A DNA stretch of 64,000 nucleotides. It comes from a virus. Taxonomy: Duplodnaviria; Caudoviricetes. A model generated the notes under the pieces. That model did no database searches. It saw only the letters and a list, made by a program, of their open reading frames with translations, and had not been told where the DNA came from. Both the position numbers and the translations under genes were made by a program. This document shows positions 13,702-36,739 of this stretch, one piece after another. The DNA is taken from positions 64,001-128,000 of the IMG/VR virus record IMGVR_UViG_3300023283_000076, one strand, 5' to 3'. Position 1 is the stretch's first letter, and every line of letters begins with the position of its first letter.

Positions 13702-14073
13702 TGCAAATGATTATCATTCTCTAAAAATTAATATTTAATTTACGAATACGAATCATTCGCATTAACTTGATTTCATATTTCACCCTTTAGTATAACAGAA
13801 AAAAAAATTAAATCAAGGGTTGACATTGTATGTATTATATGGTAAAGGTATTAAAATAGGAATTAAAAAAAGACTTGCATTCTTTTGGTGGATATGATAT
13901 ATTACACATTCGCATTCAAAATATTGGAGTTTAATACATGGAACATCGTTAATGGAGAAATATTCTGAAATGGTGTTTACCGAACCCAAGTAAAATAATT
14001 GTATATTGGTATTGACAACCGTATAATGCTGGTGTATACTGAGCACTCTCAACAATTAAACAGGAGTTAACAC

Positions 14074-14820
14074 ATGAAATTTGTCGTATATGAATCGGAG
14101 TCTGGTTGCAAGTTTCGTTGTACTGAGGCACAGCAAGAGACTCTGAGAAAGCTGGAAACAATCGTTAAAGGCGGTATTGGTACCGTTCATGGTTATACGA
14201 TGAAATCTGGCCGTGTGAAACCCGAAAAGGCCGATATCCAGTTTCTTACTGCATTCTCTACTGAGCGTCTTTATAAGCGTCGAATTGCAGCACTCGAATC
14301 TATCAGTTATGATGACATTGCTGATAATCTTCCAGACAATCCGAAGTTGACGAAACTGACAGAAGATGAGCGCAGAGAAGTGTTCAATACTCGCCGCCAA
14401 AAGGAAATCGAGAGTTATCAGAAGTCTCTTGATGGTGACCGTAGTGATTCGCATCGTCAAGCGCATGATCGGTGTTATTGTAAGATTGGACAAGGTGTTA
14501 AGGTTCACTATCGTACCGAAAAAGATGCTGATGGTATTCGCCAGCCGATTATGGTTAACGGTTTGCCTGTTGTAGAATCTATCATGCTGACGATTCTTGA
14601 AATCAAGCGTAAGGTAATCGAACCGGGCGAGTATAAGAAGGTCAATTCTGGCGCTCCGGTGCTTATCTCTAATACGATTAAGTCTACCATGAATCTTCGA
14701 TCAGTCGGTCTTAAGACTCTTTCACTGAAAGAAGATAACTTCGACAGGCTTGTACTGGACAAGACGGAGTTTTTGCCTGAACAGGTTGAAACCATTCCGG
14801 CTGACTTGTTTATCCGATAA
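14074..14820 (+). CDS. early phage protein of unknown function
   Basis: own TTGACA..TATACT promoter, AGGAG SD, hairpin terminator after stop. Confidence 0.8.
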   Translation: MKFVVYESESGCKFRCTEAQQETLRKLETIVKGGIGTVHGYTMKSGRVKPEKADIQFLTAFSTERLYKRRIAALESISYDDIADNLPDNPKLTKLTEDERREVFNTRRQKEIESYQKSLDGDRSDSHRQAHDRCYCKIGQGVKVHYRTEKDADGIRQPIMVNGLPVVESIMLTILEIKRKVIEPGEYKKVNSGAPVLISNTIKSTMNLRSVGLKTLSLKEDNFDRLVLDKTEFLPEQVETIPADLFIR

Positions 14821-14887
14821 AAGTTTGATATACTCCAAGGGTCAGTCGTTAATCGGCTGACCCATTTCTCAACACTTAGGAGAGCAA

Positions 14888-15193
14888 ATGAATAAACTTC
14901 AATTTAATACTGGTGGTGATGCATATGGTACGAGTTTGAGAGGATACGTCACGACTGTATTTGATCAACTCGTGGAAATTTTCGGGGAGCCTGAGCTTGG
15001 ACCCAATGCCGGTGATGATGACGACAAGGTTACGTGTGAATGGGTAATTACATTTGCCGATGGGGCAGTAGCTACTGTTTATGACTGGAAAACTGACGGC
15101 ACTCCAAAAACCTTGTATAATTGGCATATTGGTGGGATGAAAAACACTGACGTTGTAAATCGTATCAATGCATTGGTAAATAATTGTCTTTAA
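14888..15193 (+). CDS. conserved phage hypothetical protein
   Basis: AGGAG SD; FGEP...KVTCEW...TVYDWK...WHIGG recurring phage pattern. Confidence 0.75.
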   Translation: MNKLQFNTGGDAYGTSLRGYVTTVFDQLVEIFGEPELGPNAGDDDDKVTCEWVITFADGAVATVYDWKTDGTPKTLYNWHIGGMKNTDVVNRINALVNNCL

Positions 15194-15216
15194 TTATAGA
15201 ACATGAGAATTGACAA

Positions 15217-15405
15217 ATGACAGAACGAAAAACATACATTTGTAATCATTGTGGTAGTGATGAAATACTCTTTGATGCATGGGTTGCATGGGATGTTGAA
15301 AATCAATGTATGAGCATCACTACAACAATGGATAAAGGGCATGTATGCGAGAATTGCAATGGTATATCTACTGATCCTATTGAAGTAAATTTAAAGGAAC
15401 TATGA
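15217..15405 (+). CDS. small Zn-ribbon protein
   Basis: CNHCGS ... CENCNG. Confidence 0.65.
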   Translation: MTERKTYICNHCGSDEILFDAWVAWDVENQCMSITTTMDKGHVCENCNGISTDPIEVNLKEL

Positions 15406-15503
15406 TACTGGAACTCTTAAATGTACTCTCGGCAATTGCAGTAATCTTTGTTACAGGGATGATTGCAGGTGCTAAACTCATACTCAAATTGATGAAGAAA
15501 TAA

Positions 15504-15701
15504 ATGGAATTGAATCAATGTCAATATGGTGTTTTGGTTGAAAGCGAACATGGTGAAATTGGTATGATTGTTGGGATCACGAATAATGCAAAAAGCGCAG
15601 AGCTTTCTGTACGCAAGAAAAAAATTCATGCAATTCCAATAGTTCAATGGTCTTATGGAGAAACCAGCAGTATTCATTACGAAAACATCAAGAAACTCTA
15701 A
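15504..15701 (+). CDS. hypothetical protein
   Basis: co-oriented ORF. Confidence 0.5.
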   Translation: MELNQCQYGVLVESEHGEIGMIVGITNNAKSAELSVRKKKIHAIPIVQWSYGETSSIHYENIKKL

Positions 15702-15943
15702 TATTCTATTGAAAGGGGATAAGATAATTTTTATTCCTAACATAGAGCCTTTATCATATATTTTAAATAATGTCAAGAGTTTTTTTAGTTGACTTTTTGA
15801 GTATTCTATGATAATATTTTAAGAGTTTAAATAATGGAAACAATGAGGCAAAGTCATGTGTGTACATAAAGTCACGGTAAATTTAAATGTATTGAACCGT
15901 AAAAAAAGTTGACAATTGTTTCCCCATATGCGATACTACAGTT

Positions 15944-17344
15944 ATGAATGATAATATCCTAGTAGGAAAAGGCGAAGAGTCGCAAGTACATTTACTTGGA
16001 CAATATGCAAATCGTCATGGACTTGTTGCCGGTGCTACTGGTACTGGTAAAACTGTGACCCTGATGATGTTGGCCGAAGGGTTTTCCCGTATGGGTGTAC
16101 CTGTATTCATGGCTGACGTTAAGGGTGATATGGCAGGTTTGGCAATGCAAGGTAACGACAATCCAAAAATTCTCGAACGTGCTGAAAATATCGGTATTGA
16201 TAATTTTTCGTTTAATGGAAATCCTGTATCTTTCTGGGATTTATGGAACAATTCAGGCAATCCAATTAGAACGAGTGTCGAAAGTATCGGTGCCACCTTG
16301 ATGGCTAGAATGCTCGATGTTAGCGATGCTCAAGAAGGTGTATTAGATGTTGCATATCATTATGCAAGAGAACGTAATATTGCACTTAATACACTCAAAG
16401 ATTTTAGAGCTTTGCTGACGTACATGGCACAAAATAGAGAATTTATCAGCACCGAATATGGATTGATAAATTCAAATAGCATTGGAGCTATTCAGCGTCG
16501 ATTGCTCACACTGGAAAACGATGGAATCGATAATTTTTTTGGCACACCTGCATTAGAATTATCGGATTTTATGCGAAATCAAAATGGTAAGGGTATAATT
16601 AACATTCTTTCTGCCGAGAGTTTAATCTTGCGTCCTAGAATGTATTCTACCTTTTTGCTTTGGCTGCTATCAGAGTTGTTTGATAAGATGCCAGAGCTAG
16701 GTGATGTTGACAAACCTGAATTAGTATTTTTCTTTGACGAAGCCCACCTATTATTTGATGATTGTTCAGGTGCATTGCTTCGTAGAGTTGAACAAGTGGT
16801 GAGATTGATTCGTTCCAAGGGTGTAGGTGTATACTTTTGTTCGCAGAACCCTGATGATATTCCTGAGACTGTCCTAGGGCAGCTTGGAAATCGTGTTCAG
16901 CATGCTTTAAGGGCGTTCACGCCTAGAGACCAAAAGGCTGTTAGAGCGGCTGCTGAGACGTTTGTAGAGAATCCTAATTTTGATGTTGGTGATGTTATAA
17001 CCCGTCTAGGCGTTGGTGAAGCATTAACTTCAATGTTAGATGACAAAGGGATTCCGCAACCAGTTCAACGCACAATGATTTCTCCACCGCAATGTCGGCT
17101 TGGTACAATCAGCCATGAAGAGAGAATGCAAATTGTCGATAATGATTCATTGAAAAGAAAATATAGTAACGACAATAATGTAGACACTACTAATAAATAT
17201 GATCCACGGGATGACTTTGATGATACGATTGATTATTGGAACATTGAGCCATCAAAAAATATCAATCCTGAACCAGAGTCACCTGATAATTTTGTAACAC
17301 GGTTTATGAATGAATTTAGAAAAGCATTAATGTTTAAAAATTAA
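15944..17344 (+). CDS. HerA/FtsK-like ATPase of the DUF853 (YjgR) family
   Basis: ANRHGLVAGATGTGKT, ADVKGD, FFFDEAHLLF, RLIRSKGVGVYF, QLGNRVQHALRAFTP. Confidence 0.88.
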   Translation: MNDNILVGKGEESQVHLLGQYANRHGLVAGATGTGKTVTLMMLAEGFSRMGVPVFMADVKGDMAGLAMQGNDNPKILERAENIGIDNFSFNGNPVSFWDLWNNSGNPIRTSVESIGATLMARMLDVSDAQEGVLDVAYHYARERNIALNTLKDFRALLTYMAQNREFISTEYGLINSNSIGAIQRRLLTLENDGIDNFFGTPALELSDFMRNQNGKGIINILSAESLILRPRMYSTFLLWLLSELFDKMPELGDVDKPELVFFFDEAHLLFDDCSGALLRRVEQVVRLIRSKGVGVYFCSQNPDDIPETVLGQLGNRVQHALRAFTPRDQKAVRAAAETFVENPNFDVGDVITRLGVGEALTSMLDDKGIPQPVQRTMISPPQCRLGTISHEERMQIVDNDSLKRKYSNDNNVDTTNKYDPRDDFDDTIDYWNIEPSKNINPEPESPDNFVTRFMNEFRKALMFKN

Positions 17345-17445
17345 TTAAAAACAAATGATCAGAAATATTGTCGAAAAAGTCTTGACAATCTTTGATAAAT
17401 AGATTAGACTGTAGTTGTGATGATAAATCACACATGTAAACAATA

Positions 17446-17558
17446 CGATGAAAAAGCGGTGGACAAGAGTACATCGCGGGGCAACCCTACAGTATCGGCC
17501 ATGCTGATCCGGTGATGGTGACAAAGATACTGTGAGTCGGACGCCAAGCGACCGGCCC
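17446..17558 (+). ncRNA. candidate multi-stem structured RNA
   Basis: CGATG/CATCG, GGG-GCAA-CCC, ACAGTATC/GATACTGT and GTCG/CGGC stems downstream of promoter at 17382-17410. Confidence 0.5.
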
Positions 17559-17581
17559 AAAAAAATTCTCGTTAATAGAAA

Positions 17582-17653
17582 ACAAGACTGGTCCTCGCAT
17601 GACCGTCCCGATAGTAAGAGCAAAGGTCGTTAATTGATTGCCACCAGTCTTGT
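17582..17653 (+). ncRNA. structured RNA of unknown family, copy 2
   Basis: matches 10955-11027 except one T/C change and one T indel. Confidence 0.6.
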
Positions 17654-17919
17654 ATTTTAAAAATGTCCTTTCTTGGGCGGTATATCAGCAACTATAAAAA
17701 GCGCGGGGATGGACAGCCCCTTAATAAATGATATATTAACCCTTTTTCTTTTCACCTATAGGAGAAAAGGCCCGATTCATTTGGGCCTTTTATTTTTCCT
17801 ACACTAGGACCTTTACCATAAAACTGAATGTATTGTCAAGGAAAATAATAATAAATATCCCTTGACCTTTGAACGAATATTCGGTATAGTGTTATACATA
17901 ATTTAAGAAAGGAGTTGCA

Positions 17920-18087
17920 ATGAACACGTACAAGAAGATTTCTCGTTATGGTCCGGGTGGCCGTAATTGCAATTGTTGTGGTCCTGCTCCTCGGCATCGT
18001 AAGACACATGATCGTATGGTTAAGCGTCGTGAGCGTCAGTATACTAAGAAAGAAGTAGAACAGGAAATGATGAACGTAAATCTCTAA
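17920..18087 (+). CDS. small basic Cys-rich protein (55 aa)
   Basis: AAGGAG SD; MNTYKKISRYGPGGRNCNCCGPAPRHRK...; translated by hand. Confidence 0.7.
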   Translation: MNTYKKISRYGPGGRNCNCCGPAPRHRKTHDRMVKRRERQYTKKEVEQEMMNVNL

Positions 18088-18200
18088 AACCCCCTTGACA
18101 TATATGTTTTTTAAGATACAATAGTAAGTATAAATAAAGTAGTTCCGAAGAAACCCTTAATATAAGTCGATTTGAAAGGCTTAAAACAAAAACTCATGAA

Positions 18201-18330
18201 GAACAAACTAGACGCAGAATTAGAAACTCTGCAACGAAACAGGGTCCGGAGGGAATGCCGGTAGAATGGTAGGATAGCGCCTATCACGTTGCCCCGCTAG
18301 GTAATTGCCAATCCCTAGCCTAGTTTGTTC
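18201..18330 (+). ncRNA. candidate 130-nt multibranch RNA upstream of tRNA-Lys
   Basis: 11-bp closing stem GAACAAACTAG/CTAGTTTGTTC with several internal hairpins. Confidence 0.55.
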
Positions 18331-18343
18331 ATTTTTAATCTTT

Positions 18344-18420
18344 GGGTCTGTGGCGCAATTGGCTAGCGCAGTGGACTTTTAATCCATTGGTTGTGAGTTC
18401 GAGTCTCACCAGACCCACCA
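18344..18420 (+). tRNA. tRNA-Lys(TTT)
   Basis: GTGGA-CTTTTAA-TCCAT, GGGTCTG/CAGACCC, CCA. Confidence 0.95.
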
Positions 18421-18717
18421 ATTTTATTACATAGAAAGCCCATTGGAGAAAAAATGGACAGCCGAAAAGAAGGAATTACAGTAAAACAACACAGCGATGG
18501 GCAGAACAGGGTTTTGACATCGTGGGATATCATGGATATACTATGGGAAGTATATTTTTACTAATTAATGTATGGTATCTTCTTAGAAAGGTCCCGGATA
18601 ATGGAATTATGTATAGTGCATACCTTATGCGATGGGGTGATGATAATGTAGAAGCGATAGATGCAATTAAACCGAATTAACGCTTGACAGATGAAATGAG
18701 ATATGTATAATAGGTTG

Positions 18718-19049
18718 CAAGTGGTCGTTTCAGAGTAAAAGCCGTAATTCAATCGGGCTTTGTACTTTAGATTGAACTAGATATTGCTGGCTGTAGGGTA
18801 ATATCATCACGTATCTACAGGGCGAGGCTACCGTCTTAGCAGTCAACATATAGTCTCAGTCTCGCAGAGACTTTATAAAACCCAGTGAGCGCGAGATTAA
18901 CTGGAAAACAATAACTGGCAGGTTGGGAGAGCGACCCAATGCCCTTGGCGACAAGGTAGCGTAGTGTGACCAGATTATGTAGAGAACGTGCAAACCTTAT
19001 TCTAGATAAGTTAGGCTAGGAGACGAGAAACTTCGAAGAATCAAATTCA
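18718..19049 (+). ncRNA. candidate large structured RNA (about 330 nt)
   Basis: promoter TTGACA-N16-TATAAT at 18684-18711; many stems, GCGA tetraloop, loop-loop complementarity; no long ORF. Confidence 0.55.
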
Positions 19050-19191
19050 GGGCACATTGTAGCAGTCTGTGAAGCGTGGCCCGCGTGGAGACTGCTATTT
19101 CAATTTCAACGGTAAATGCTCTCACCGGAGAAAATATCCACCATCGAGGGTGGTGGGAGATGTAGGTACCAAATCCTACCGGTGCCCACCA
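19050..19191 (+). ncRNA. 142-nt tRNA-like RNA ending in ACCA
   Basis: GGGCAC/GTGCCC-ACCA, GTAGG-TACCAAAT-CCTAC T-like arm, CCACCA-TCGAGGG-TGGTGG arm. Confidence 0.65.
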
Positions 19192-19264
19192 TCTTTAAAA
19201 AATTCTTGACATTAAGATGACTTTGCATTATGATGTAAAATCATATCAATAAAGGATCATATAA

Positions 19265-19582
19265 ATGAAATCAATTGAAGAATGGAGCGCAACACGTTGG
19301 ATTTTTACCGCAATGGCATCTATCATTGCAATATCAGTATTTTTCTTTGTACTGGCATCTGCCGGATTGATCGGTGAAAAGGTGGTGGAGAGAGAAGTAT
19401 TTGAAAATAGTTTTCAATATAGTGAAGCACGAAAAACTGCCATCGCTACATATGAAGCACAGTTGGCTGAAATTGATTCCCAACTTCGAAGCACCAATCT
19501 TTCAGAACGTGAAAGAAGTAATCTACGCTCCCAAGCCGCCCGTCTAAGGGTTCTACTACAAACCGAAAGGAGAAAACAGTAA
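19265..19582 (+). CDS. single-TM membrane protein, partner of downstream lipoprotein
   Basis: N-terminal TM then VEREVFENSFQY and coiled segment. Confidence 0.75.
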   Translation: MKSIEEWSATRWIFTAMASIIAISVFFFVLASAGLIGEKVVEREVFENSFQYSEARKTAIATYEAQLAEIDSQLRSTNLSERERSNLRSQAARLRVLLQTERRKQ

Positions 19583-19740
19583 TGAAAAATATTTTTAATG
19601 TGCTAGCCGCAGTAGTCGTCGTCTTTGTCATGGAATGGAGCGCAACACGTTGGATTTTTACCGCAATGGCATTTATCATTGCAATATCAGTATTTTTCTT
19701 TGTATTATCATCTGCCGGATTGATCGGTGAACCCGTCTAA
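19582..19740 (+). CDS. chimeric 52-aa hydrophobic ORF made by local duplication
   Basis: first 17 codons copy the lipoprotein signal; remainder copies the TM segment of 19265..19582. Confidence 0.55.
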   Translation: MKNIFNVLAAVVVVFVMEWSATRWIFTAMAFIIAISVFFFVLSSAGLIGEPV

Positions 19741-19774
19741 GGGTTCTACTACAAACCGAAAGGAGAAAACAGTA

Positions 19775-20341
19775 ATGAAAAATATTTTTAATGTACTAGC
19801 CGCAGTATTCGTCGTCTTTGTCATGGCAGGCTGTCAAGATACGTCTACAACTGCCGAAAGTGAATCTGTCATGAAACAACAGAAGCAGATGCTTACTAGC
19901 CAGCCTATTCCATCATTCAACTGGTCATTGGAACGTGACCTTCTGATTCAGTTGTATAATATTCGTAATGAACGTGTCAGCACCCATAGTGTATGGCGCA
20001 GTAATCATGGAATGGTTGAAGGTGATTGTCCGTCTATTGGATATGGCATTCCCTATGATACTTCTTTGACCAACCCACAGCGAGCTACGGCCCAAGCTGC
20101 TGACAAACGATACACTTCTGAATCTCTAGCCACAATTGAACAAGCTGAACCTAATGGTATCTTCGCCAGTAAGAATACGGCAGCTACATGGGTATTCTGC
20201 GTGGGTAGTGCGGGGGCGTTGAATCCAGTATACGTCGAAACCAAGGTTACTGCATATCCGTATCCAGTTGAGGTTGATTATGAGACCAACAGGGTTACTC
20301 AAGCTGGTGAATCAAGTGTTAATGTGACAGTTAACCGCTAG
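19775..20341 (+). CDS. lipoprotein
   Basis: AAGGAG SD; MKNIFNVLAAVFVVFVMAG-C lipobox. Confidence 0.8.
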   Translation: MKNIFNVLAAVFVVFVMAGCQDTSTTAESESVMKQQKQMLTSQPIPSFNWSLERDLLIQLYNIRNERVSTHSVWRSNHGMVEGDCPSIGYGIPYDTSLTNPQRATAQAADKRYTSESLATIEQAEPNGIFASKNTAATWVFCVGSAGALNPVYVETKVTAYPYPVEVDYETNRVTQAGESSVNVTVNR

Positions 20342-20452
20342 ATTAATTGAAAAGTAGTCAATATAATAATGAAACAGGGGGCTCCCCTGTTTCTTTTTCA
20401 ACAGAATGTAAGTTTCCCTTGACATTTACAAAAATAATGGTATATTGAAACC

Positions 20453-21226: not shown

Positions 21227-21273
21227 TTATGATTTGATATGATCTAATTTTACAAACAGGCATGGAAAAGTAA

Positions 21274-27307: not shown

Positions 27308-27528
27308 GATTCCCTGTCAGTGAATGGTCAGTGGAATGTAAGGGCACAAAACATCGTGCCCCTTTTTTAATCGTATTCTAGGGCCTTTACTCCATCATAA
27401 TCCATTTGTCAAAAACTTTCGACGGAACTACATCACATAAAAAATTTACAATTATTTTCGGAAATCGGTTGACAGATTAATCATGATGCTGTATAATTGT
27501 ACTCACACTCACTGATAGAAAAAACAAC

Positions 27529-28029: not shown

Positions 28030-28229
28030 TCCTAGTCAGTGAATGGTCAGTGGAATGTAAGGGCACAGAGCATCGTGCCCTTTTTTATTTTCTATTCTAC
28101 AACCTTTACCATATTATTCCCATACTGTCAAGTAAAAAATTAAAAAATAATTTCAAAAAACTATTGCATTTCTTAAATTGTTTAGTATAATTTCACTGCA
28201 CTTTCCAAAAACAGTTAAGGATATTCATA

Positions 28230-29082: not shown

Positions 29083-29146
29083 ACAGCCGTTGAAGCCTTG
29101 ACAAGCATGAAAACATCTGTGTAATAGGTTACAAGATTTAAGGTTT

Positions 29147-29230
29147 CAACAAGGTTTGTAGTCGAAGCCCTTAGAGCCGTGAAACCGGAGCTAGATTGAA
29201 AACTGGTCAAAACAAACCTTGTTGCTTTTT
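29147..29230 (+). ncRNA. candidate small RNA with 13-bp closing stem and U-tract
   Basis: CAACAAGGTTTGT/ACAAACCTTGTTG perfect stem, TTGACA upstream at 29099. Confidence 0.5.
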
Positions 29231-29704: not shown

Positions 29705-29729
29705 ATCTGCTTGACAAACATGAAAACAT

Positions 29730-30092
29730 TTGTATAATGGATTTCAATGTCCCCCAAACAGGAACAAAAACATGAAAGCATTTTTGATTGATCCCCGAAA
29801 TGAAACCGTTACCGAAACAACGTATAACGGTAACATCGAAGATATCTACAATCAAATTGATGTACGAAATTTTGAAGTTGCAACAATCAACGATGAAGGG
29901 GATGGTGTATATGTCGATGGTGAGGGACTATTCTCAGATGAGCGTTTTGTGTTCACTGTAAGAGGGTATTCGGGACCACTTGTGAACCCGGCAATGGTTA
30001 TCGGTTGCAATCCTGAAACGGGTGAAAATCGTGAAGCGTCAGTGACACTAGAATGGCTTGAACGCAATGTAAATTTTATGGGCCGAGTGTAA
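29730..30092 (+). CDS. DUF3846-like phage protein (likely start MKAFLIDP)
   Basis: YVDGEGL motif. Confidence 0.65.
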   Translation: MYNGFQCPPNRNKNMKAFLIDPRNETVTETTYNGNIEDIYNQIDVRNFEVATINDEGDGVYVDGEGLFSDERFVFTVRGYSGPLVNPAMVIGCNPETGENREASVTLEWLERNVNFMGRV

Positions 30093-30368
30093 TAACTTAC
30101 TCGGATATTCTAAAGGAGACCTTAAAAATGCTTAGACGAAATAAAGATCCGCCCGCGAGGGTATAATTAGATGATTATTTTAAGATAATAAGAAAGATGA
30201 AAGAACCCGGTTCGTAGATGGCCGGGTTCTTTCTTTTTTATCCTATTCTAAAACCTTTATCATATGTTCAACATTATGTCAAGATATTTCTTGTTTAATT
30301 TTCCATTGCATTTTCTTTGGTTTTCAGGTAGACTATAATTATTAAATTACATGTTAGGAGTCTAAAAA

Positions 30369-30701
30369 ATGTCTGAGAAACCTCGTCATACATGCATGAA
30401 GAGAATTCATGTTCGTCAGGCTATCGAAGAAACAATCATGGAATCCGATTTCCATACTCATGTTGTACTGACAACATCGTGGACTTGGACTGAAGTAATC
30501 GATGGTGTCGTCAAATATTTCAGAGAACGTCCTAGTATGCAAGAAGAATATTTTTATGACGTGATCGAAATTGCTACTGAAATTGTAGGTGAAGATAGAT
30601 TAACAGAACGTGCTGCGCCCTATGGTGACGCTGATACAGGTCAGGCCATTAGCTTTCCTGCTTTCATCGAAACTATTGCGGGAGATGTGTTTGACATTTG
30701 A
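30369..30701 (+). CDS. hypothetical protein
   Basis: own promoter, AGGAG SD. Confidence 0.7.
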   Translation: MSEKPRHTCMKRIHVRQAIEETIMESDFHTHVVLTTSWTWTEVIDGVVKYFRERPSMQEEYFYDVIEIATEIVGEDRLTERAAPYGDADTGQAISFPAFIETIAGDVFDI

Positions 30702-30734
30702 GATATAGTATACTATTGTTTTACACTTAACAGG

Positions 30735-31046
30735 ATGATTATTATGGCTTCTGCAATTCATTTCCATGGCACCGATTTTTTTCTTGATCCGTCAGAACTG
30801 GATGGTAACATTCTGCAAGATTTGAAGGATTGTGGCGGTCAAGGTGACGCTTCCAGTGCAGTTGACTATGTAATGGACAATTATCAAATTACTGGAAATG
30901 AGCAGGATTGTCAAAACTATCTCAAGGGATATGGTGCATGGGAAGATCATGAACTTCAAGATCATCATGAAAATCTGCGTCGTCTTGTATGGCTTGCAGG
31001 ATGCGACTTAGATGAACAAAACGAAATATATTTTTCAACCTATTAA
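30735..31046 (+). CDS. conserved phage hypothetical protein
   Basis: YGAWEDHEL...RLVWLA pattern. Confidence 0.7.
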   Translation: MIIMASAIHFHGTDFFLDPSELDGNILQDLKDCGGQGDASSAVDYVMDNYQITGNEQDCQNYLKGYGAWEDHELQDHHENLRRLVWLAGCDLDEQNEIYFSTY

Positions 31047-31065
31047 AATTCAATGGAGATATTAG

Positions 31066-31485
31066 ATGTTTACACTTCAAGATTGCTTCAATGCTGCATG
31101 GCACCATTTTATCGAAAATCAAAATCCTCCATCCGTAGTATCAAGGACATGGGATGATAATAGCTATATGCCAGCATACAATAATGGCACAAATAAATGT
31201 GCAATTGGTCTATTGACTGATGATCTTAAAGATTGGGATGGTAGCATTGAAGAATTATTTACTCCGGGTCCTGAAAACGAAAAATTTAAAAGTCTTGTAG
31301 AACAATTTGATGTTGATCTTTCATCCGAAGAGAGTATTGAATCATGGCAAGAAGCGCAAAATAAACTCCATGATTTTCATATTGACTTCGAGTCTGGAGA
31401 ATGGGTTTGTTCATTTGAAGAGCTTAAAGATAACTATATTCGATTTGCTCATGAACATGCTTTGGATATCCCAAATGAACATTAA
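31066..31485 (+). CDS. hypothetical protein
   Basis: GGAG SD; KCAIGLL...QNKLHD. Confidence 0.7.
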   Translation: MFTLQDCFNAAWHHFIENQNPPSVVSRTWDDNSYMPAYNNGTNKCAIGLLTDDLKDWDGSIEELFTPGPENEKFKSLVEQFDVDLSSEESIESWQEAQNKLHDFHIDFESGEWVCSFEELKDNYIRFAHEHALDIPNEH

Positions 31486-31962
31486 TAAGATTTATGAAAA
31501 TCTGTGCATTCGTGATTCCAGAAATCCGATGTATGATGAATTGAAGGATTCTTATGAACCATATGATATCATGCCTGAACCTAGAGCCGATTGTGCTTGT
31601 GACAATTGTTTCTATGGTAGAGACAGATTAGCACTTGAAATTATTCGACTGCGTATTAAATTGGGGTTGTATCATTAGATTATTTTTTGTAGAATATACG
31701 TATGTCATTGTGGGCGAACGAACACGGATGGATCAACCCGATTAACCATGTTTTAGTATTTACAAAAACAGAACGGGATACGTTGAATCTACCCATGGGT
31801 GAACACTGGCACCGTATTGTTGGTTAAGTGTCCATATACCCTCTATATACCCCCTAATATATAACGCATGCGTTAGTAGTTAATGTATCATATTCTTTAC
31901 ACTATCTTACTTAATGTATAAAATGAGATACATTACCATCTAAAATCATTTTTAAATTTCTC

Positions 31963-32301
31963 TTGCATTGTTTGATTGATCATGCTATTATATATCCACG
32001 TTCACTAATCGGAGAAACTTACATGTCTGTCGAAATTGTTAACGAACGTTTCATGGTTTGTGTTGATTGCGCTATGTTTATTGCCAACGATGATCTTAGT
32101 GGGCTCGATTACCATTTTCTCTCCGATGAATCTGAACAGCGTGAAATCGCTATCCGCAACGGTGTTCAATATCAAAACGATCAAGATAATCATATTGTTA
32201 TGGGAAACTCTGATGATGATATTGAATTTTCCAAAAGCCCTTGCAATTGTTGTGGCGATCATTTACATGGATATCGTTATCATGCAGTTTTACTTAAATA
32301 A
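31963..32301 (+). CDS. Cys-rich hypothetical protein (likely start MSVEIV near 32023)
   Basis: CVDC and CNCCG motifs; GGAG before internal Met. Confidence 0.65.
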   Translation: MHCLIDHAIIYPRSLIGETYMSVEIVNERFMVCVDCAMFIANDDLSGLDYHFLSDESEQREIAIRNGVQYQNDQDNHIVMGNSDDDIEFSKSPCNCCGDHLHGYRYHAVLLK

Positions 32302-32318
32302 GAAACATTCCTACATAT

Positions 32319-32459
32319 AAATGAAAATCATTTTCATTTGGCAATGAGAATCATTTTCAATATCAAAAATGATAGCCATTCTCATTTGACAATAAAAACC
32401 ATTCTCATTTGACAATAAAAACCATTCTCATTTGACAATAAAAACCATTCTCATTTGAC
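32319..32459. promoter_or_regulatory. array of six Fur-box-like sites, last four as 23-bp tandem repeat
   Basis: AAATGAAAAT-C-ATTTTCATTT palindrome, TGAGAAT-C-ATTTTCA, then CCATTCTCATTTGACAATAAAAA repeats. Confidence 0.7.
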
Positions 32460-32558
32460 CTTATCTCGATTCAACCCTAGATGGTATCATATAACACCTG
32501 TAAATACAAAGATTTTTTTTTATCCTATTTTGGTACCTTTATCATATGCTGATACCTT

Positions 32559-32701
32559 TGTCAATACCCTAAAGAAAATATAATCAAAATCTATCAATCC
32601 ATCAGAGTTCATGCACAAATCGGATTTACAATTATTTTCAAAAATCGGTTGACGGATTGAGCATGTTGCTGTATGATCGGACTCACATTCACTGATAAAG
32701 G
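32559..32701. repeat. repeated intergenic promoter module (copies near 35095-35237 and 35603-35744, partial near 27444-27520)
   Basis: TGTCAATACCCTAA...AAATCGGATTTACAATTATTTTCA.A.ATC.GTTGAC...ACATTCACTGATA. Confidence 0.85.
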
Positions 32702-32710
32702 TAAATTGTT

Positions 32711-33019
32711 ATGCTAAAGATTGAACAGGAAATGATTAACGCCATTCAAAACAAGCGCAATTGGAGGTTCGGTAATACTTCGGTCGAATACTTGCCCGAG
32801 ATTGTTACACCTATGCGGGCACGTATTGAAATGGCAAAAGTTTATCTTTACAGTAACTGTATTGCCACTTATTCTTATCATGATAATACAGCTACTATCG
32901 TTCCCAGCACGCTTGTAGAATGGCCTACTGTTACAACCTTTTCTCGCCTTCGTGCTCTTGGACTTGATCCTAAATCGGAACTTAAGAGAATTGCAAATAA
33001 CATACAAGATGCAGCATGA
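32711..33019 (+). CDS. conserved phage early protein
   Basis: MLKIEQEM...GNT.V...TTFSRLRAL; own promoter. Confidence 0.7.
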   Translation: MLKIEQEMINAIQNKRNWRFGNTSVEYLPEIVTPMRARIEMAKVYLYSNCIATYSYHDNTATIVPSTLVEWPTVTTFSRLRALGLDPKSELKRIANNIQDAA

Positions 33020-33333
33020 AAAACAATTACCGCAAGTTAACCAAGAAACAATGGTATGACCTTGGCGGCTTCGCCAATCCATCATTGTTTCGTCGTGACC
33101 GTAGCAGGGGCTGGCAATACTATCAAGATATGGACCACCCTGCAAGTAATCATAACTATAGTGAATAAAGAATCGGGGCTTCGGCCCCCTTTCTTTTATC
33201 CTATTCTAGAACCTTTACCATACAATCAAAACAGTGTCAACCGATAAACGAAATAATTTATTTTTAAATAAGTATTGACTCCTCCAAAAATACCAGTATA
33301 ATTGTTTACATCATTTCAACAAGGGAAATAGCT

Positions 33334-33636
33334 ATGGAAAATGTAAAGTTTGCTGGCTTTGATTGTACCGTTGAATTTGCCACGTACTCGAATGGACGTA
33401 CCGCTATTCAGCTTCGTGATGCAAACGATGGCCAGCCAATTGCCACCGCAACAGTCAACCTTCCCGATGAACCGATGGCTGAGGATGAGGTTGCTATCAA
33501 GAACTATAGCGAAAACTCTGGCATGTTAGATATTTTAATAGACACTGGAGTGATTGCCAGCCCGCATCGTGAAATCCCTAGCGGCTTCGTCACCATACCA
33601 GTCTGCGCCCTTCTGGTCAATCCAAATCAATCCTAG
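33334..33636 (+). CDS. conserved phage early protein
   Basis: YSNGRTAIQL...ATVNLP...IKNYSEN pattern; own promoter. Confidence 0.75.
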   Translation: MENVKFAGFDCTVEFATYSNGRTAIQLRDANDGQPIATATVNLPDEPMAEDEVAIKNYSENSGMLDILIDTGVIASPHREIPSGFVTIPVCALLVNPNQS

Positions 33637-33723
33637 TCAGTGAATGGTCTAGGTGGGCACGGGAAACCGTGCCCTTTTTTATCCTATTCTAAAACCTTTA
33701 TCATATCTTCATTCTAATGTCAA
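33631..33723. repeat. about 93-bp trailer/terminator module, near-identical copy at 34066-34158
   Basis: TCCTAGTCA.T.AATGGTCTAGGT-GGGCACGG-GAAA-CCGTGCCC-TTTTTTATCCTATTCTAAAACCTTTATCATATCTTCATTCTAATGTCAA. Confidence 0.9.
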
Positions 33724-33806
33724 GAAAAATAATTTAAAATTTATTCTTGACACTCTCAAAAATATCTGTATAATAGAATGTACATTCACTGATAGGAATA
33801 ACATAC

Positions 33807-34043
33807 ATGAACACTCTCAAGAACATTTCATTAGATCGAGATACTATTTTAATGGAACACGGATATGATCCGAATGATCCTACCTTGCAGGTGCATGTTA
33901 GTGTATCTGAAATTGAACCTAACCCTGATGGCAATGAAGATTATCTCATCGATGGTTCTAGTGTCACTACATCATCAGAACTTATCGACGGCCGTCAAAA
34001 TGATGTTGATCTGAATATCGAAATTTTCCGAGAACCGCATTAA
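33807..34043 (+). CDS. small acidic hypothetical protein
   Basis: own promoter with shared leader. Confidence 0.65.
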   Translation: MNTLKNISLDRDTILMEHGYDPNDPTLQVHVSVSEIEPNPDGNEDYLIDGSSVTTSSELIDGRQNDVDLNIEIFREPH

Positions 34044-34264
34044 GTATCGGCTCCAATCAGTTTAATCCTAGTCAATAAATGGTCTAGGTGGGCACGGGAA
34101 ACCGTGCCCTTTTTTATCCTATTCTAAAACCTTTATCATATCTTCATTCTAATGTCAACCCTTCAACCCAAAAAATTTCTTACAAATAATTATTAAAAAC
34201 CCTTGCACTTTCCCGAAAAATCTTTATAATAGATTCTAACATCAACTGAAAAAGGATAGTAGGT

Positions 34265-34999
34265 ATGCCAAGTCAAGAAATCGTCGAAATTTTCCGCAAT
34301 CATGGCGTGAACATCACCGCTGATGATTCCAGTATGAAACTGGTCAAAGCGTTGAAAGAAGAAAATCCCGCAACACTATGGCCCATGCTTGAAGAGTTTA
34401 CTAACAACAAGCCTATCGGCCTCGATGGCTGTAACGAAACAATGCATCACTATACATTGCAATATGCCCTCGTAAGAGCATTTGAACAAAATCGTGATAG
34501 CATCACTCAAGACGATTTAGATGCTGCTCGTGAAGATGCTGCCAAATTAGCAGAATCCCTTTCTCATGGTTCGTCTACTCGTGATGATGAAATCGTTCAA
34601 AATGATTCCGAAAATGAAGATAATCAGAGTAACGTTGCTAAGCCTAAGAAAACCAGAAAACGAAATCGTAATCTGTATCCCATGATCCTTTCGTTAGTCG
34701 AAGATAATATGAAAGCAACGCCTAACGAAATTCTCGAAATGGTCAAAGAACGTGATCCCGCTGCAAACGATTCAACCGTCAAGGTATACTACAGCAAGGC
34801 ACGTAATGAACTCAACTTGCCGAAAATCGGAAAACGTGGCCGCAAGGGTTCAGGTATCTATGATAAGATCAAAGCATTGATTGAAGCTAACCCGAACGTT
34901 GAACGTGCTGAAATGATCGAACGCATCGTTAACGAACTTGGAGCCAAAGTCGGTACCGCTCAAGCCTACTACAGCAAGGCAATGAAAGAATTGAGCTAA
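34265..34999 (+). CDS. putative DNA-binding protein; paralog of 22259..22945
   Basis: KVYYSKAR...GKRGRK...AQAYYSKAMK duplicated unit. Confidence 0.75.
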   Translation: MPSQEIVEIFRNHGVNITADDSSMKLVKALKEENPATLWPMLEEFTNNKPIGLDGCNETMHHYTLQYALVRAFEQNRDSITQDDLDAAREDAAKLAESLSHGSSTRDDEIVQNDSENEDNQSNVAKPKKTRKRNRNLYPMILSLVEDNMKATPNEILEMVKERDPAANDSTVKVYYSKARNELNLPKIGKRGRKGSGIYDKIKALIEANPNVERAEMIERIVNELGAKVGTAQAYYSKAMKELS

Positions 35000-35245
35000 C
35001 CCCTAGCTTAACATCAAAAACTATTCAGGGACCATAGAACGGTCCCTGAATATTATCCTATCCTAATGCCTTTAACTCATCATCATCATCCATTTGTCAA
35101 TACCCTAAGCAAAATATAATCAAAACATATCAATCTATCCAAATCTATAGACAAATCGGATTTACAATTATTTTCAGAAATCGGTTGACGAATTGACCAT
35201 GTTGCTGTATGATCGTACTTACATTCACTGATAGGAGAAACACAA

Positions 35246-35515
35246 ATGGAAGATATTCTCAGGGAAGAGCGATTCAACAAAATTATGGAAGCAGGAAACA
35301 ATGGCCATTTCTTTTCTGTTCGCTTCATCAAGCGGTCTAACGGTGCCGAACGCTTCATGACCTGTCGCCTCGGAGTTACAAAACATCTCAAGGGTGGTAA
35401 CAAAGCATACGACGACAAAGTTCACAAACTTGTCACCGTCTACGATGTTCAAGCCAAAGGATACCGTTGCATTCCACTGGAAAGCATCTTTGAACTCAAC
35501 GGCGAACCTATCTGA
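35246..35515 (+). CDS. SH3/WYL-like beta-barrel phage protein
   Basis: FFSVRFIKRSNG.ER.M.CRLGV.KHLKGG...VYDVQAKGYR. Confidence 0.65.
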   Translation: MEDILREERFNKIMEAGNNGHFFSVRFIKRSNGAERFMTCRLGVTKHLKGGNKAYDDKVHKLVTVYDVQAKGYRCIPLESIFELNGEPI

Positions 35516-35752
35516 TAGGTTCAATCGTATCATCAAGAGGATGCGACTTGTTCGCATCCTTTTTTATCCTATCCTAATGCCTTTAACTCATCATCATTTA
35601 TTTGTCAATACCCTAAAGAAAATATAATCAAAACCTATCAATCAATAAGAATCTATAGACAAATCGGATTTACAATTATTTTCAGATATCAGTTGACAAT
35701 CCTGAAAATATCTGTATAATCCTTAATTACATTCACTGATAAGGGTAACACG

Positions 35753-36640
35753 ATGAACGGAAATCAAAAGATTCACAAGATTGTAGCGCAAGCTTTCATC
35801 GACCAGATCGAAGCAGGTATGGCGGATGGTAAATGGACCGCTCCATGGGCGAAGCTTGCCACAGACTTTCCGACCAATGCCGTGACAAAGAAGGCATACC
35901 GTGGTATCAATATCTTTTCATTGTGGGGCGCTGGATTCTCATCCCCGTACTGGGCTACCTTTAAGCAATGGAAGTCAGTCGATGCCACGATCAAGAAAGG
36001 ATCAAAAGGATCATTGATCGTTTTCTGGAAAATTATCGATTCCAAGAATCAATTCGATAGTGACGGCAAGCCAAAAAAGTTTCCCTTCCTACAGAAATCG
36101 AAAGTTTTCAATGCCGATCAAGTTGATGGCTGGACCGCTCCAACACTGGAAGATCGTCCTAAGCTTTCGACAAATGAAATCCATGCCGAATGCGATGCAA
36201 TGATCGCAGCGACGGGTGCTGAAATCCAGCATGGCGGAAATATGGCCTGTTATGTTCCAAGTCATGACCGTATACTTCTTCCTGAATTCAACGCCTTTCG
36301 GGATGCCGATTCATACTATCAGACCGCATTCCATGAACTGGCACATTGGACAGGTCATGCTTCACGACTGGACCGCAACCTTTCCACCCGCTTCGGAAGC
36401 AATGCATATGCATTGGAAGAACTGTTAGCAGAACTTACAGCAGCCATTGTGGGCGTCCGTATGGGCATCGATGCTACTACCCGCATGGACCATGCAAAGT
36501 ATGTAAAGAGTTGGCTTACGGCGCTTCGTGAACAGCCAGAGTGCCTCATGCATATCGCCAGCAAGGCGAGCAAGGTAGCGGATTACCTGATCGAGGGCGA
36601 AGCAGGTGAAACCAAACAAGATCAAGCGGAAGCCGCTTGA
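35753..36640 (+). CDS. ardC: ArdC-like antirestriction protein (ssDNA-binding plus zincin domain)
   Basis: W.APW, YRGIN, YWATFKQW, VFNADQV, FHELAHWTGH.SRL.R, YALEEL.AEL. Confidence 0.9.
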   Translation: MNGNQKIHKIVAQAFIDQIEAGMADGKWTAPWAKLATDFPTNAVTKKAYRGINIFSLWGAGFSSPYWATFKQWKSVDATIKKGSKGSLIVFWKIIDSKNQFDSDGKPKKFPFLQKSKVFNADQVDGWTAPTLEDRPKLSTNEIHAECDAMIAATGAEIQHGGNMACYVPSHDRILLPEFNAFRDADSYYQTAFHELAHWTGHASRLDRNLSTRFGSNAYALEELLAELTAAIVGVRMGIDATTRMDHAKYVKSWLTALREQPECLMHIASKASKVADYLIEGEAGETKQDQAEAA

Positions 36641-36739
36641 TCTATCATTGATAGACTAGACGAGGATGCGAATCATTCGCATCCTCTTTTTTATCCTACT
36701 CTAGAGCCTTTACCATATAACATATCGCTTGTCAATACC

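What the first reader, a model, noticed from the sequence alone, without database searches (positions are those of the whole stretch)
13820..36735. Thirteen TTGACA-N17-TAAAGG elements back-to-back with real early promoters
On the minus strand the CCTTTA..TGTCAA spans are 15748-15776, 17810-17839, 27384-27412, 28103-28131, 30254-30282, 32536-32564, 33212-33240, 33695-33723, 34130-34158, 35069-35100, 35580-35608 and 36707-36735; one plus-strand copy at 13820-13848 faces away from a minus-strand promoter. The spacer is exactly 17 in 11 copies (18 and 20 in the others) despite variable sequence, and most copies continue with a TAG(A/G)ATAGGA-like tail and an A-tract. Known: the last T of the sigma70 -10 hexamer is needed for melting, and here it is always G. 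Inference: RNAP traps or sinks, promoters for a phage-modified RNAP producing antisense RNA against upstream early genes, or insulators.
Basis: partly seen in the sequence, partly recalled or inferred. Interest (0 to 1): 0.72.

Follow-up and report, generated by a model that had tools for sequence, protein, structure and literature searches.

The report
Backward-facing atypical promoters between phage early genes
An uncultured T4-like jumbo phage and at least four related phages keep dozens of copies of a near-perfect bacterial promoter whose last box is always TAAAGG instead of TATAAT. Most copies point backwards at the terminator of the previous early gene, so this looks like a second, undescribed promoter class, though whether it fires has not been tested.

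Summary
**Observation:** confirmed. All 13 copies lie at the stated coordinates, against 0.1 expected by chance. The whole 270-kb phage record has 26 copies, all in the early region.

**The element:** TTGACA, a 17/18-bp spacer of unconserved sequence, a TRTGn extended -10, an invariant TAAAGG, then a purine-rich box.

**Placement:**
- Most copies sit 19-22 nt from the reversed hairpin of the previous gene's terminator.
- They stand back-to-back with a canonical early promoter.
- Five or six copies instead sit in tandem just upstream of a canonical promoter.

**Conservation:**
- Four more distant metagenomic relatives (ArdC-like protein 59-65% identical) carry 25 further copies with the same -35, spacing, TRTG and TAAAGG.
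- Their downstream box differs (GCTGAA).
- With the hexamer defined only by its flanks, it is TAAAGG in every true copy of these five genomes. One TAGAGG variant occurs in a strain-variant contig of this phage.
- Xanthomonas phage XacN1 and its kin have an analogous class with TAAAAT-GGATGGCAGG.

**Reading:** a selectively kept RNA-polymerase recognition element. It is most likely a conditional or weak antisense promoter class embedded in PeSL-like shuffling cassettes. A non-firing polymerase dock is the main rival.

**Limits:** no RNA data exist, so firing is untested. No description was found in the papers searched.

**Earlier notes:** other first-stage notes of this scan flagged the same class in this genome.

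The parts
13820..13871 (+). TAAAGG element, tandem type: TTGACA-17-TAAAGG plus a purine-rich box and A-tract. It is back-to-back (3-nt gap) with a minus-strand promoter and is followed by a canonical promoter.
13789..13816 (-). Canonical minus-strand promoter TTGATT-16-TATACT for the 137-aa Zn-ribbon gene (13288-13701).
13875..13903 (+). Canonical promoter (TTGCAT-17-TATATT with TGn) in tandem, 26 nt after TAAAGG. It lies upstream of the 248-aa gene at 14074-14820.
15728..15776 (-). TAAAGG element (N17). An AT-rich hairpin lies downstream. Its paralogue in the left arm (genome 19212+) has a T-tract on the element's own strand.
17790..17839 (-). TAAAGG element (N18) facing a bidirectional terminator (17765-17791).
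27364..27412 (-). TAAAGG element (N17, no TG) facing the reversed terminator at 27342-27361.
28083..28131 (-). TAAAGG element facing the reversed terminator at 28059-28082.
30234..30282 (-). TAAAGG element facing the reversed terminator at 30199-30233.
32481..32564 (-). TAAAGG element (32536-32564) of tandem type, followed 25 nt later by the promoter-like TTTGTA-N18-TACCAT (32481-32510).
33189..33240 (-). TAAAGG element facing the hairpin at 33175-33188.
33675..33723 (-). TAAAGG element facing the reversed terminator at 33655-33674. It is 23 nt back-to-back with the promoter at 33747-33774.
34110..34158 (-). TAAAGG element, identical to the 33695 copy, facing the reversed terminator at 34090-34109.
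35053..35100 (-). TAAAGG element (N20). The hairpin at 35022-35052 scores as a terminator on the element's own (minus) strand.
35561..35608 (-). TAAAGG element (no TG) facing the reversed terminator at 35538-35560.
36687..36735 (-). TAAAGG element facing the reversed terminator at 36662-36686. No canonical partner promoter was found behind it.
33655..33680 (+). Example of a plus-strand intrinsic terminator (8-bp GC stem plus T6). Its T-tract is the complement of the element's A-tract.
33747..33774 (+). Example of a canonical early promoter (TTGACA-16-TATAAT) with the leader CATTCACTGATAGGA, serving the gene at 33807-34043.

Best explanation
**What it is.** The TTGACA-17/18-TRTGn-TAAAGG units are real, selectively maintained recognition sites for a sigma70-type RNA polymerase holoenzyme. 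They form a second promoter class of this T4-like jumbo phage and its relatives, built into the junctions between single-gene early cassettes (gene, terminator, backward element, forward promoter, next gene).

**Shown by sequence.**
- All duplex-read determinants are optimal: -35, spacer length, extended -10, and T-12/A-11.
- The last bases of the -10 are invariably AAGG.
- The unit faces either the reversed terminator of the previous gene, at a fixed 19-22 nt, or the -35 of a canonical promoter.

**Inferred mechanism.**
- Host holoenzyme docks facing backwards. Because G replaces the melting-critical T at -7, it opens only weakly or conditionally.
- Opening may need a phage factor that reads TAAAGG and the adjoining box, supercoiling, or convergent transcription.
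- When it fires, it starts about 7 nt past TAAAGG and runs through the hairpin. In that direction most hairpins lack a U-tract.
- It then enters the 3' end of the previous early gene, where it would damp, insulate or shut off the early cassettes by antisense RNA and head-on interference.
- Tandem copies add a second input to a few genes.

**Second role.** The same repeated junctions serve as recombination sites that shuffle cassettes.
For: **Promoter-type anatomy**
- Enrichment: 13 copies against 0.11 expected in the window; 26 in the genome, all between 2.7 and 100.7 kb.
- Over the 40 copies with an N17 spacer from 5 genomes: -35 T/T/G/A/C/A in 40/40/40/39/40/37; T-17 34; R-16 37; T-15 32; G-14 38; A at -2 39; purine at +1 33.
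- TAAAGG was required by that search. With the hexamer defined only by its flanks, it is TAAAGG in every true copy of these five genomes. The one variant, TAGAGG, is in the strain-variant contigs L173/L174.
- Spacer identity between copies is 0.30-0.40, about random, against 0.97-1.00 in the hexamers.

**Conservation in relatives**
- Relatives at 59-65% ArdC identity carry 4, 7, 11 and 3 copies. TAAAGG is the top hexamer after TTGACA-N17 in two of them.

**Placement**
- The hairpin starts 19-22 nt after TAAAGG in most copies of all lineages. In tandem copies the next -35 starts 14-15 nt after TAAAGG in the relatives and 14-26 nt (mostly 23-26) in this phage.
- Ten of 21 strict terminator-like sites in the early 108 kb are followed by the full element, and one more by a copy with a damaged -35. 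None of the 16 sites in the rest of the genome is.
- The tool's own scan finds the plus-strand terminators and consensus promoters flanking the elements.

**Hints that transcripts matter**
- Some copies have terminators usable in the element's own direction: window 17810 and 35069, genome 19212.
- XacN1, Xoo-sp13 and RAS14 have an analogous class with a normal -10, TTGACA-17-TAAAAT-GGATGGCAGG. It occurs in the early regions in both orientations, and some of the hairpins it faces are flanked by U-rich runs in its own direction.

**Transcription programme**
- It is T4-like: TATAAATA is enriched upstream of the ORFs beyond 128 kb, taken as the late region (20 against 1.5 expected), and a gp55-like late sigma is present.
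- No AsiA or MotA hit was found, so the phage's middle-mode control is open.
Against: **No evidence of firing**
- No transcript evidence of any kind exists.
- By established knowledge of sigma70, T at -7 is close to essential for open-complex formation. With unaided host polymerase these sites may therefore not fire at all.

**No factor identified**
- No phage sigma or sigma-modifying gene was identified. Only a gp55-like late sigma was found. The record is about 79% complete.

**Cost of antisense transcription**
- Most reversed hairpins lack a U-tract in the element's direction. An active promoter would make long antisense RNAs and head-on collisions during the early phase, which looks costly unless activity is delayed.

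**Unexplained features**
- Tandem copies do not fit a purely antisense role.
- The downstream box differs between lineages, and no function is shown for it.
- The constant distances could partly reflect common descent of the terminator-element units.
Confidence: 0.45

Rival explanations
1. **Non-firing polymerase dock.** The element binds host holoenzyme through the -35, TG and T-12 but cannot melt. It would act at the DNA level in one of three ways:
- as a roadblock or insulator just beyond each terminator;
- as a competitor or reservoir for the adjacent canonical promoter;
- as a sink for sigma70 holoenzyme as genome copies accumulate.
For: - G at -7 and -8 in every copy, while all duplex-read elements are optimal.
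- Most reversed hairpins have no U-tract for the element's direction, so firing would give uncontrolled antisense RNA.
- The distance to the terminator is fixed at 19-22 nt, and to a tandem -35 at 14-15 nt in the relatives.
- In some copies the two -35 hexamers are only 3-4 nt apart, which suggests competition.
Against: - A site that only had to be unable to melt would tolerate many hexamers. Yet A-10, A-9, G-8, G-7 and the next 6-7 bases are invariant or strongly conserved.
- A-11, the base flipped first in melting, is kept in all copies.
- Closed complexes are short-lived by established knowledge, so they make poor roadblocks.
- The analogous XacN1-type elements have a normal TAAAAT.
- A few copies carry a terminator for their own direction.
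Confidence: 0.2
2. **Mainly a recombination module.** The repeated terminator-element-promoter junctions exist because they mediate cassette shuffling, like the PeSLs of T4-type phages. On this view the backward promoter-like unit is an inverted, decayed copy of the forward promoter and leader, with no transcriptional role.
For: - Strain variants L173/L174 and L168 differ from this genome by cassette reordering, insertion and deletion, with breakpoints in these junctions. A 125-bp element segment, 96.8% identical, sits at a new junction in L168.
- In several copies an inverted copy of the forward 5' leader follows the reversed hairpin.
- PeSLs are described for T4-type phages (PMC2839356, PMC4122927).
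Against: - Decay would not keep TTGACA, the 17-bp spacing, TRTG and TAAAGG exact while the spacers drift to random identity across 5 lineages.
- Homology-driven shuffling does not need a promoter-shaped repeat.
- Published PeSL promoters have canonical -10 boxes and point with the genes.
Confidence: 0.1
3. **Promoter for short trans-acting or priming RNAs.** The product is the conserved purine-rich 5' end. In this phage it is AGAAUAGGAUAAAAAA-like, and in the relatives it is A-rich with AAGG, GGUGA or GGGG runs. It could be a decoy for an RNA-binding host factor or for ribosomes (Shine-Dalgarno-like), or an R-loop primer as at T4 replication origins.
For: - The region just after the start is conserved and 80-85% purine in each lineage.
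- Some copies end at a terminator after about 35-50 nt.
- In XacN1 several of the hairpins faced by the analogous elements are followed by U-rich runs in the element's direction, so short RNAs of roughly 60 nt would be expected there (my reading of the printed sequences).
Against: - The purine run is largely the complement of the forward terminator's T-tract.
- The box differs between lineages.
- No Rfam family matches.
- Most copies in this phage have no terminator in their own direction.
- 26 replication origins would be implausible.
Confidence: 0.1

Closest known systems
PeSL cassettes (promoter-early stem-loops) of T4-type phages (Arbiol et al. 2010, PMC2839356; Comeau et al. 2014, PMC4122927)
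   Same: - Composite terminator/promoter motifs repeated between small early genes in plastic regions of T4-like genomes.
- They are associated with indels and shuffling between close relatives, as seen here in L168 and L173/L174.
   Different: - PeSL promoters have canonical -10 boxes and point at the next gene.
- Here an extra unit with an invariant TAAAGG points backwards at the terminator, or sits in tandem upstream of the canonical promoter.
- Nothing like it appears in the passages of the 2014 PeSL paper that I read.
Cis-antisense promoters of temperate phages: lambda pO (oop RNA), lambda PaQ and PRE, and P22 Psar (from my own knowledge)
   Same: - A promoter placed convergent to an early transcription unit, so that its RNA overlaps the 3' end or control region of a gene.
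- PaQ and PRE have poor core elements and need an activator (CII).
   Different: - Those are single-copy and regulate one gene, and oop and sar have their own terminators.
- Here there are dozens of copies, one per cassette, mostly without a terminator of their own.
- The -35 and extended -10 are perfect, and only the -10 is odd.
Phage re-targeting of sigma70 holoenzyme: T4 AsiA/MotA middle promoters (from my own knowledge)
   Same: - A T4-like phage with a second promoter class that keeps one host-type element and replaces the other.
- Such promoters are often placed in tandem with early promoters.
   Different: - T4 keeps the -10 and replaces the -35 with a MotA box at -30. Here the -35 is kept and the -10 is replaced.
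- No AsiA or MotA homologue was found.
- The orientation here is mostly antisense.
Extended -10 (TRTGn) sigma70/sigmaA promoters
   Same: TRTG at -17 to -14, one base before the hexamer. T-12 and A-11 are present.
   Different: Known extended -10 promoters keep T at -7 and usually have a weak -35. These have a perfect -35, and G at -8 and -7.
TTGACA-17-TAAAAT-GGATGGCAGG elements of Xanthomonas phages XacN1 and Xoo-sp13 and Stenotrophomonas phage RAS14 (found here; I know of no description)
   Same: - Related jumbo phages: the 248-aa protein is 46-51% identical.
- A repeated early-region intergenic element with a host-type -35, a 17-bp spacer and a long invariant stretch from the -10 onward.
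- It is often back-to-back with a canonical promoter and faces the previous terminator.
   Different: - The -10 is canonical (T at -7).
- The downstream box is different.
- The hairpin lies 35-45 nt away, and some hairpins look usable in both directions.

Membership tests
sigma70-type -35/-10 promoter | -35 hexamer close to TTGACA | tested here: met
   TTGACA is exact in 23 of 26 genome copies and in 22 of the 25 copies in the relatives; the other three read TTGACT.
sigma70-type -35/-10 promoter | 17 +/- 1 bp spacer whose sequence is not itself conserved | tested here: met
   Spacer lengths are 17 in 40 copies, 18 in 8 and 20 in 1. Spacer identity is 0.30-0.40.
sigma70-type -35/-10 promoter | -10 hexamer TAnnnT, with A at -11 and T at -7 | tested here: not met
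   T-12 and A-11 are present, but -8 and -7 are G in every copy. The hexamer is invariant even when defined only by its flanks.
sigma70-type -35/-10 promoter | Extended -10 (TGn, TRTG) one base upstream of the hexamer | tested here: met
   G-14 in 38/40, T-15 in 32/40, R-16 in 37/40 and T-17 in 34/40.
sigma70-type -35/-10 promoter | Transcripts start about 7 nt downstream | not testable with these tools
   No RNA run holds the phage. Only a conserved A at -2 and a purine at +1 are seen.
PeSL cassettes of T4-type phages | Repeated composite terminator-plus-early-promoter motif between small genes of plastic regions | tested here: met
   Terminator, element and canonical promoter occur at nearly every junction between 27 and 37 kb.
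PeSL cassettes of T4-type phages | The promoter of the motif is near-consensus and drives the downstream gene | tested here: not met
   This holds for the forward partner promoter, not for the TAAAGG unit, which mostly points the other way.
PeSL cassettes of T4-type phages | Associated with indels and shuffling between close relatives | tested here: met
   L168 and L173/L174 are 96-99.7% identical in shared segments but have reordered cassettes.
Cis-antisense small RNA genes (lambda oop, P22 sar) | Promoter convergent with the 3' end or control region of a gene | tested here: met
   About 20 of 26 copies face the 3' end of the preceding gene.
Cis-antisense small RNA genes (lambda oop, P22 sar) | Own terminator giving a discrete short RNA | tested here: not met
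   Only a few copies qualify (window 17810 and 35069, genome 16746 and 19212). Most reversed hairpins lack a U-tract.
T4 middle (MotA/AsiA) promoters | MotA box near -30 replacing the -35; MotA and AsiA genes present | tested here: not met
   The -35 is TTGACA. There is no hit to PF09010 or PF09114 in the record, which is 79% complete.
T4 late promoters | TATAAATA at -10, read by a gp55-type sigma | tested here: not met
   TATAAATA marks the late genes and a gp55-like gene exists. The element differs from it and is absent from late regions.
Lambdoid Q-loading promoters (PR') | A -10-like pause element in the initially transcribed region, plus a Q antiterminator gene | tested here: inconclusive
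   - In this phage a TAnnnT hexamer lies 3 nt after TAAAGG in nearly all copies. It is absent in the relatives.
- The neighbouring 137-aa protein hits a PHROG named 'Q-like' only through a CxxC zinc ribbon.

The most novel reading that the evidence does not exclude
- A phage-encoded or virion-injected factor re-programmes the -10 readout of host sigma70 holoenzyme to TAAAGG plus the adjoining lineage-specific box. This would be sigma appropriation acting on region 2 rather than region 4.
- At a set time it would switch on one antisense promoter behind every early cassette, giving a genome-wide, promoter-encoded shut-off of early genes.
- The few tandem copies would carry selected genes into the next phase.
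Probability: 0.2. Interest if true: 0.85.

Novelty: new variant of a known kind. Interest (0 to 1): 0.62.

Why it matters
**What is unusual.** Promoter recognition by sigma70 is among the best understood protein-DNA codes, and T at -7 is one of its firmest rules. Here, over 50 copies in at least five phage lineages, a site is perfect in every other respect and always has G at -7 and -8. It is placed systematically behind early genes.

**What follows.** Either holoenzyme can be made to use such a -10, which implies an unknown phage factor or mode of opening. Or phages use non-productive polymerase docking as a regulatory device.

**How it can be tested.** Both can be tested with simple in vitro transcription and footprinting on a 200-bp fragment. 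The cultured Xanthomonas phages with the analogous element allow RNA-seq.

**Wider use.** The finding also refines the picture of how T4-like phages build and shuffle early-gene cassettes.

Tried and rejected
**RNA evidence**
- No RNA holder is listed for the window, with either a 9.5-kb or a 1.15-kb query. Two DNA runs of one study hold it. Expression therefore could not be examined.

**Searches for the element elsewhere**
- The exact element with its box is not in other IMG/VR contigs.
- A 14-base loose pattern gave only chance single hits.
- The relatives' version in IMG/VR gave 3 chance or coding hits.
- The metagenome scan gave one true relative, L168, among 13 hits.
- Megablast of 8 kb against the phage collection found nothing related.

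**Searches through proteins**
- The YjgR-like ATPase led only to bacterial contigs filed as phage.
- The search for related loci with the 248-aa protein found nothing.

**Readings considered and dropped**
- T7-like RNA polymerase promoter, because of the TAAAGG resemblance to the T3 promoter: no PF00940 hit, but the control genomes also gave none, so this is uninformative.
- Late promoter: rejected. The late motif is TATAAATA, and the box never occurs outside the elements.
- TAnnnT as the true -10: rejected as a general reading. It lies 26 nt from TTGACA and is absent in the relatives.
- A mini-ORF inside the element (ATG-RTA-AAG-...-stop): it lies upstream of the predicted start and has no Shine-Dalgarno sequence. 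The NTG preference is explained by the TRTG motif.
- Other host sigma consensus motifs, recalled from memory (sigma28, sigma32, sigmaE, sigma54): none fits.
- Rfam: no family at the elements.

**Literature**
- No paper holds TAAAGG together with TTGACA and phage in a relevant sense.
- Papers mentioning XacN1 do not describe its promoters.

Full report
**1. Observation**

- TTGACA-N17-TAAAGG occurs 11 times in the window (0.01 expected). With N15-21 it occurs 13 times, at exactly the reported coordinates (0.11 expected).
- The window is bases 64001-128000 of a 270,653-bp IMG/VR virus record, about 79% complete.
- The whole record has 23 full copies. The downstream box (TAAAGG-N3-TA-N3-TAGG) reveals 3 more whose -35 is mutated or deleted. 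That makes 26, all between 2.7 and 100.7 kb.
- TAAAGG is the most frequent hexamer 17 nt after TTGACA in the genome: 20, against 8 for TATACT and 5 for TATAAT.

**2. What kind of phage**

- TATAAATA is strongly enriched upstream of the ORFs beyond 128 kb, taken as the late region: 20 observed against 1.5 expected.
- A 225-aa gp55-like late sigma is present. The programme is therefore T4-like, with host polymerase used for early genes.
- No T7-type polymerase hit was found, but the control genomes also gave none, so that search is uninformative.
- No AsiA or MotA hit was found. No full sigma70-family gene was found.

**3. Anatomy**

On the gene strand a typical junction (window 33637-33806) reads in this order:
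- stop codon;
- short trailer;
- GC hairpin plus T6, scored as a terminator by the scan tool;
- the complement of the box;
- CCTTTA-N17-TGTCAA;
- 12-84 nt of AT-rich DNA;
- a consensus forward promoter;
- a shared leader, CATTCACTGATAGGA;
- ATG.

Read on its own strand, the element is: TTGACA, 11 unconserved bases, TRTGn, TAAAGG, three bases, TAnnnT-AGGA, A-tract, reversed hairpin.

Placement:
- Every strong plus-strand terminator between 27 and 37 kb is followed by an element 21-24 nt away.
- With a strict home-made predictor, 10 of 21 terminator-like sites in the early 108 kb are followed by the full element, and one more by a copy with a damaged -35. None of the 16 sites elsewhere is.
- Five or six copies have no hairpin. 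They are followed, in the same direction, by a canonical promoter and a gene: window 13820+ and 32536-, and genome 6874+, 20785-, 45832- and perhaps 52547+.
- A few copies have a terminator usable in their own direction: window 17810 and 35069, and genome 16746 and 19212.

**4. Conservation outside this genome**

*Strain-level relatives*
- The exact element is absent from other IMG/VR contigs.
- A metagenome scan found one close relative, L168. In it, a 125-bp element segment 96.8% identical to one copy sits next to different DNA.
- Contigs L173 and L174, from two other samples, are strain variants of the left arm, 96-99.7% identical in shared segments. Their cassettes are reordered, inserted or deleted, with breakpoints in these junctions.

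*More distant relatives*
- Homologues of the ArdC-like protein (window 35753-36640) led to four more distant phage contigs, at 59-65% identity.
- All four carry the class: 4, 7, 11 and 3 copies of TTGACA-17/18-TRTGn-TAAAGG-GCTGAA.
- Each is followed by about 20 purine-rich bases and the reversed terminator hairpin, or by the -35 of a canonical promoter starting 14-15 nt after TAAAGG.

*Position by position*
- Over the 40 N17 copies from 5 genomes, the -35, G-14 (38/40) and A at -2 (39/40) are nearly invariant. T-17, R-16 and T-15 are strongly preferred.
- Spacers and flanks are at about random identity, 0.30-0.40.
- When the hexamer is defined only by its flanks, it is still TAAAGG in every true copy of these five genomes. 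One TAGAGG occurs in the strain-variant contigs L173/L174.
- The GG at -8/-7 is therefore ancient and under selection, not decay.

**5. An analogous class in cultured phages**

- The 248-aa protein downstream of the 13820 copy is 46-51% identical to proteins of Xanthomonas phages XacN1 and Xoo-sp13 and Stenotrophomonas phages RAS14 and CM1.
- XacN1, Xoo-sp13 and RAS14 were scanned and have no TAAAGG elements. They do have TTGACA-17-TAAAAT-GGATGGCAGG(C/A)CGGG.
- Counts: 24 hits in XacN1, paired between the two ends of the record and so about 12 distinct sites; 11 in Xoo-sp13; 3 in RAS14. The reversed-pattern control gave 0-1.
- These elements lie in early intergenic regions in either orientation. 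They are typically back-to-back with a canonical promoter and 35-45 nt from a hairpin. Some of those hairpins are flanked by A- and U-rich runs on both sides.
- There the -10 is normal, so those units should fire.

**6. Interpretation**

*That polymerase recognises the site*
- Exact spacing over random spacers, a perfect -35, a correctly placed TRTG and T-12/A-11 are the signature of recognition by regions 4, 3 and 2.4 of a sigma70-type factor.

*What happens next is inference*
- Established knowledge says T-7 is needed for stable melting.
- That argues for weak or conditional opening, or for none.

*Against a merely dead site*
- A-10, A-9, G-8, G-7 and the following bases are invariant. Canonical promoters in the same genomes vary freely at -10 to -8.
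- A-11 is retained.
- The XacN1 analogue has a normal -10.
- A few copies have a terminator for their own direction.

*Against constitutive strong firing*
- Most hairpins are unidirectional, so long antisense RNAs would result.

*Reading I favour (0.45)*
- A conditional antisense promoter class. Once opened, by a factor reading TAAAGG plus its lineage-specific box or by topology or convergent transcription, it transcribes back into the previous cassette. It would damp or shut off early genes there.
- Tandem copies give a second input to selected genes.

*Alternatives*
- The main rival is a non-firing dock, roadblock or insulator (0.2).
- Recombination-only (0.1) and short trans-acting or priming RNAs (0.1) follow.
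- Shuffling at these junctions is shown and is compatible with all readings.

**7. Novelty**

- PeSLs of T4-type phages are the nearest described structures (PMC2839356, PMC4122927). Their promoters are canonical and point with the genes.
- Lambda oop, PaQ and P22 sar are single antisense units.
- No paper in the searched library pairs TAAAGG with TTGACA in phage promoters. Papers citing XacN1 do not treat its promoters.
- I class the finding as a new variant of a known kind.
- Other first-stage notes of this scan had flagged the same class elsewhere in this genome. Their list of degenerate copies agrees.

Noticed in passing
window 33775-33806 and 33637-33654; also genome 5844, 91317, 92036 and 97637; L177-L180: - The forward early mRNAs share a 5' leader: CATTCACTGATAGGA here, and CATTCAACGGAGG in the relatives.
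- In several cassettes the 3' trailer just before the terminator hairpin carries its reverse complement: TCAGTGAATGG here, and CCTCCG-type anti-Shine-Dalgarno in 9 of about 16 relatives' copies.
- Each mRNA could therefore pair its 5' and 3' ends. A backward transcript from the element would carry a copy of the leader.
   Followed up: partly
L127-L159 (XacN1 AP018399, Xoo-sp13 MN047793, RAS14 OP752703): - A repeated early-region element, TTGACA-17-TAAAAT-GGATGGCAGG(C/A)CGGG: about 12 distinct copies in XacN1, 11 in Xoo-sp13 and 3 in RAS14, in either orientation.
- It is testable in culture.
- Some copies show small variable hairpins right after the box.
   Followed up: partly
genome 2.7-20.8 kb versus 77.8-100.7 kb (window 13.8-36.7 kb): - The two early arms are diverged inverted duplicates of each other (80-91% identity in blocks). 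Genes read outward and elements point inward.
- Strain variants L173/L174 carry, in the left arm, cassettes that this genome has only in the right arm.
   Followed up: partly
all lineages, upstream of the element's -35: - The gaps between the two back-to-back -35 hexamers cluster near 22, 33, 45 and 56 nt, and near 84 nt. This suggests steps of about one helical turn.
- It may simply reflect shared sequence modules.
   Followed up: no
window 27413-27445; genome about 3800-3830; L177, L179, L180: A conserved module, TTTTTATGTGAT-N~8-CCGTCGAAAGTTC, directly abuts the -35 of a subset of elements in several lineages. It contains a TGTGA half-site like that of CRP.
   Followed up: no
window 13288-13701 (-): - A 137-aa protein with two CxxCxGxG zinc-ribbon motifs hits a PHROG labelled 'anti-termination protein Q-like' (E 2e-12). 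Pfam gives only weak DnaJ-type zinc-finger hits.
- It lies divergent from the 13820 element.
   Followed up: partly
inside every element, e.g. window 33679-33699 (-): - A tiny in-frame ORF spans the -10: ATG-RTA-AAG-GNN-YTA-NNN-TAG here, and NTG-NTA-AAG-GGC-TGA in the relatives.
- It is probably a by-product of TRTG plus TAAAGG, since it lies upstream of the predicted start.
   Followed up: partly
genome 19212-19290 (+): This copy is followed after 10 nt by a hairpin plus T6 on its own strand. The converging genes get no U-tract. It is a self-contained unit that would give an RNA of about 35 nt.
   Followed up: partly
window 32319-32470: A tandem array of repeats of about 23 bp (ATTCTCATTTGACAATAAAAACC-like) lies just downstream of the tandem-type element at 32536 and its second promoter.
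   Followed up: no
phage collection records CAKLQH020000003 and MW462191: Records filed as 'Acinetobacter phage MD-2021a' and 'Bacteriophage sp.' that match the window's YjgR-like ATPase look like bacterial chromosome pieces. The first carries ribosomal protein operons and the second housekeeping metabolic genes.
   Followed up: no
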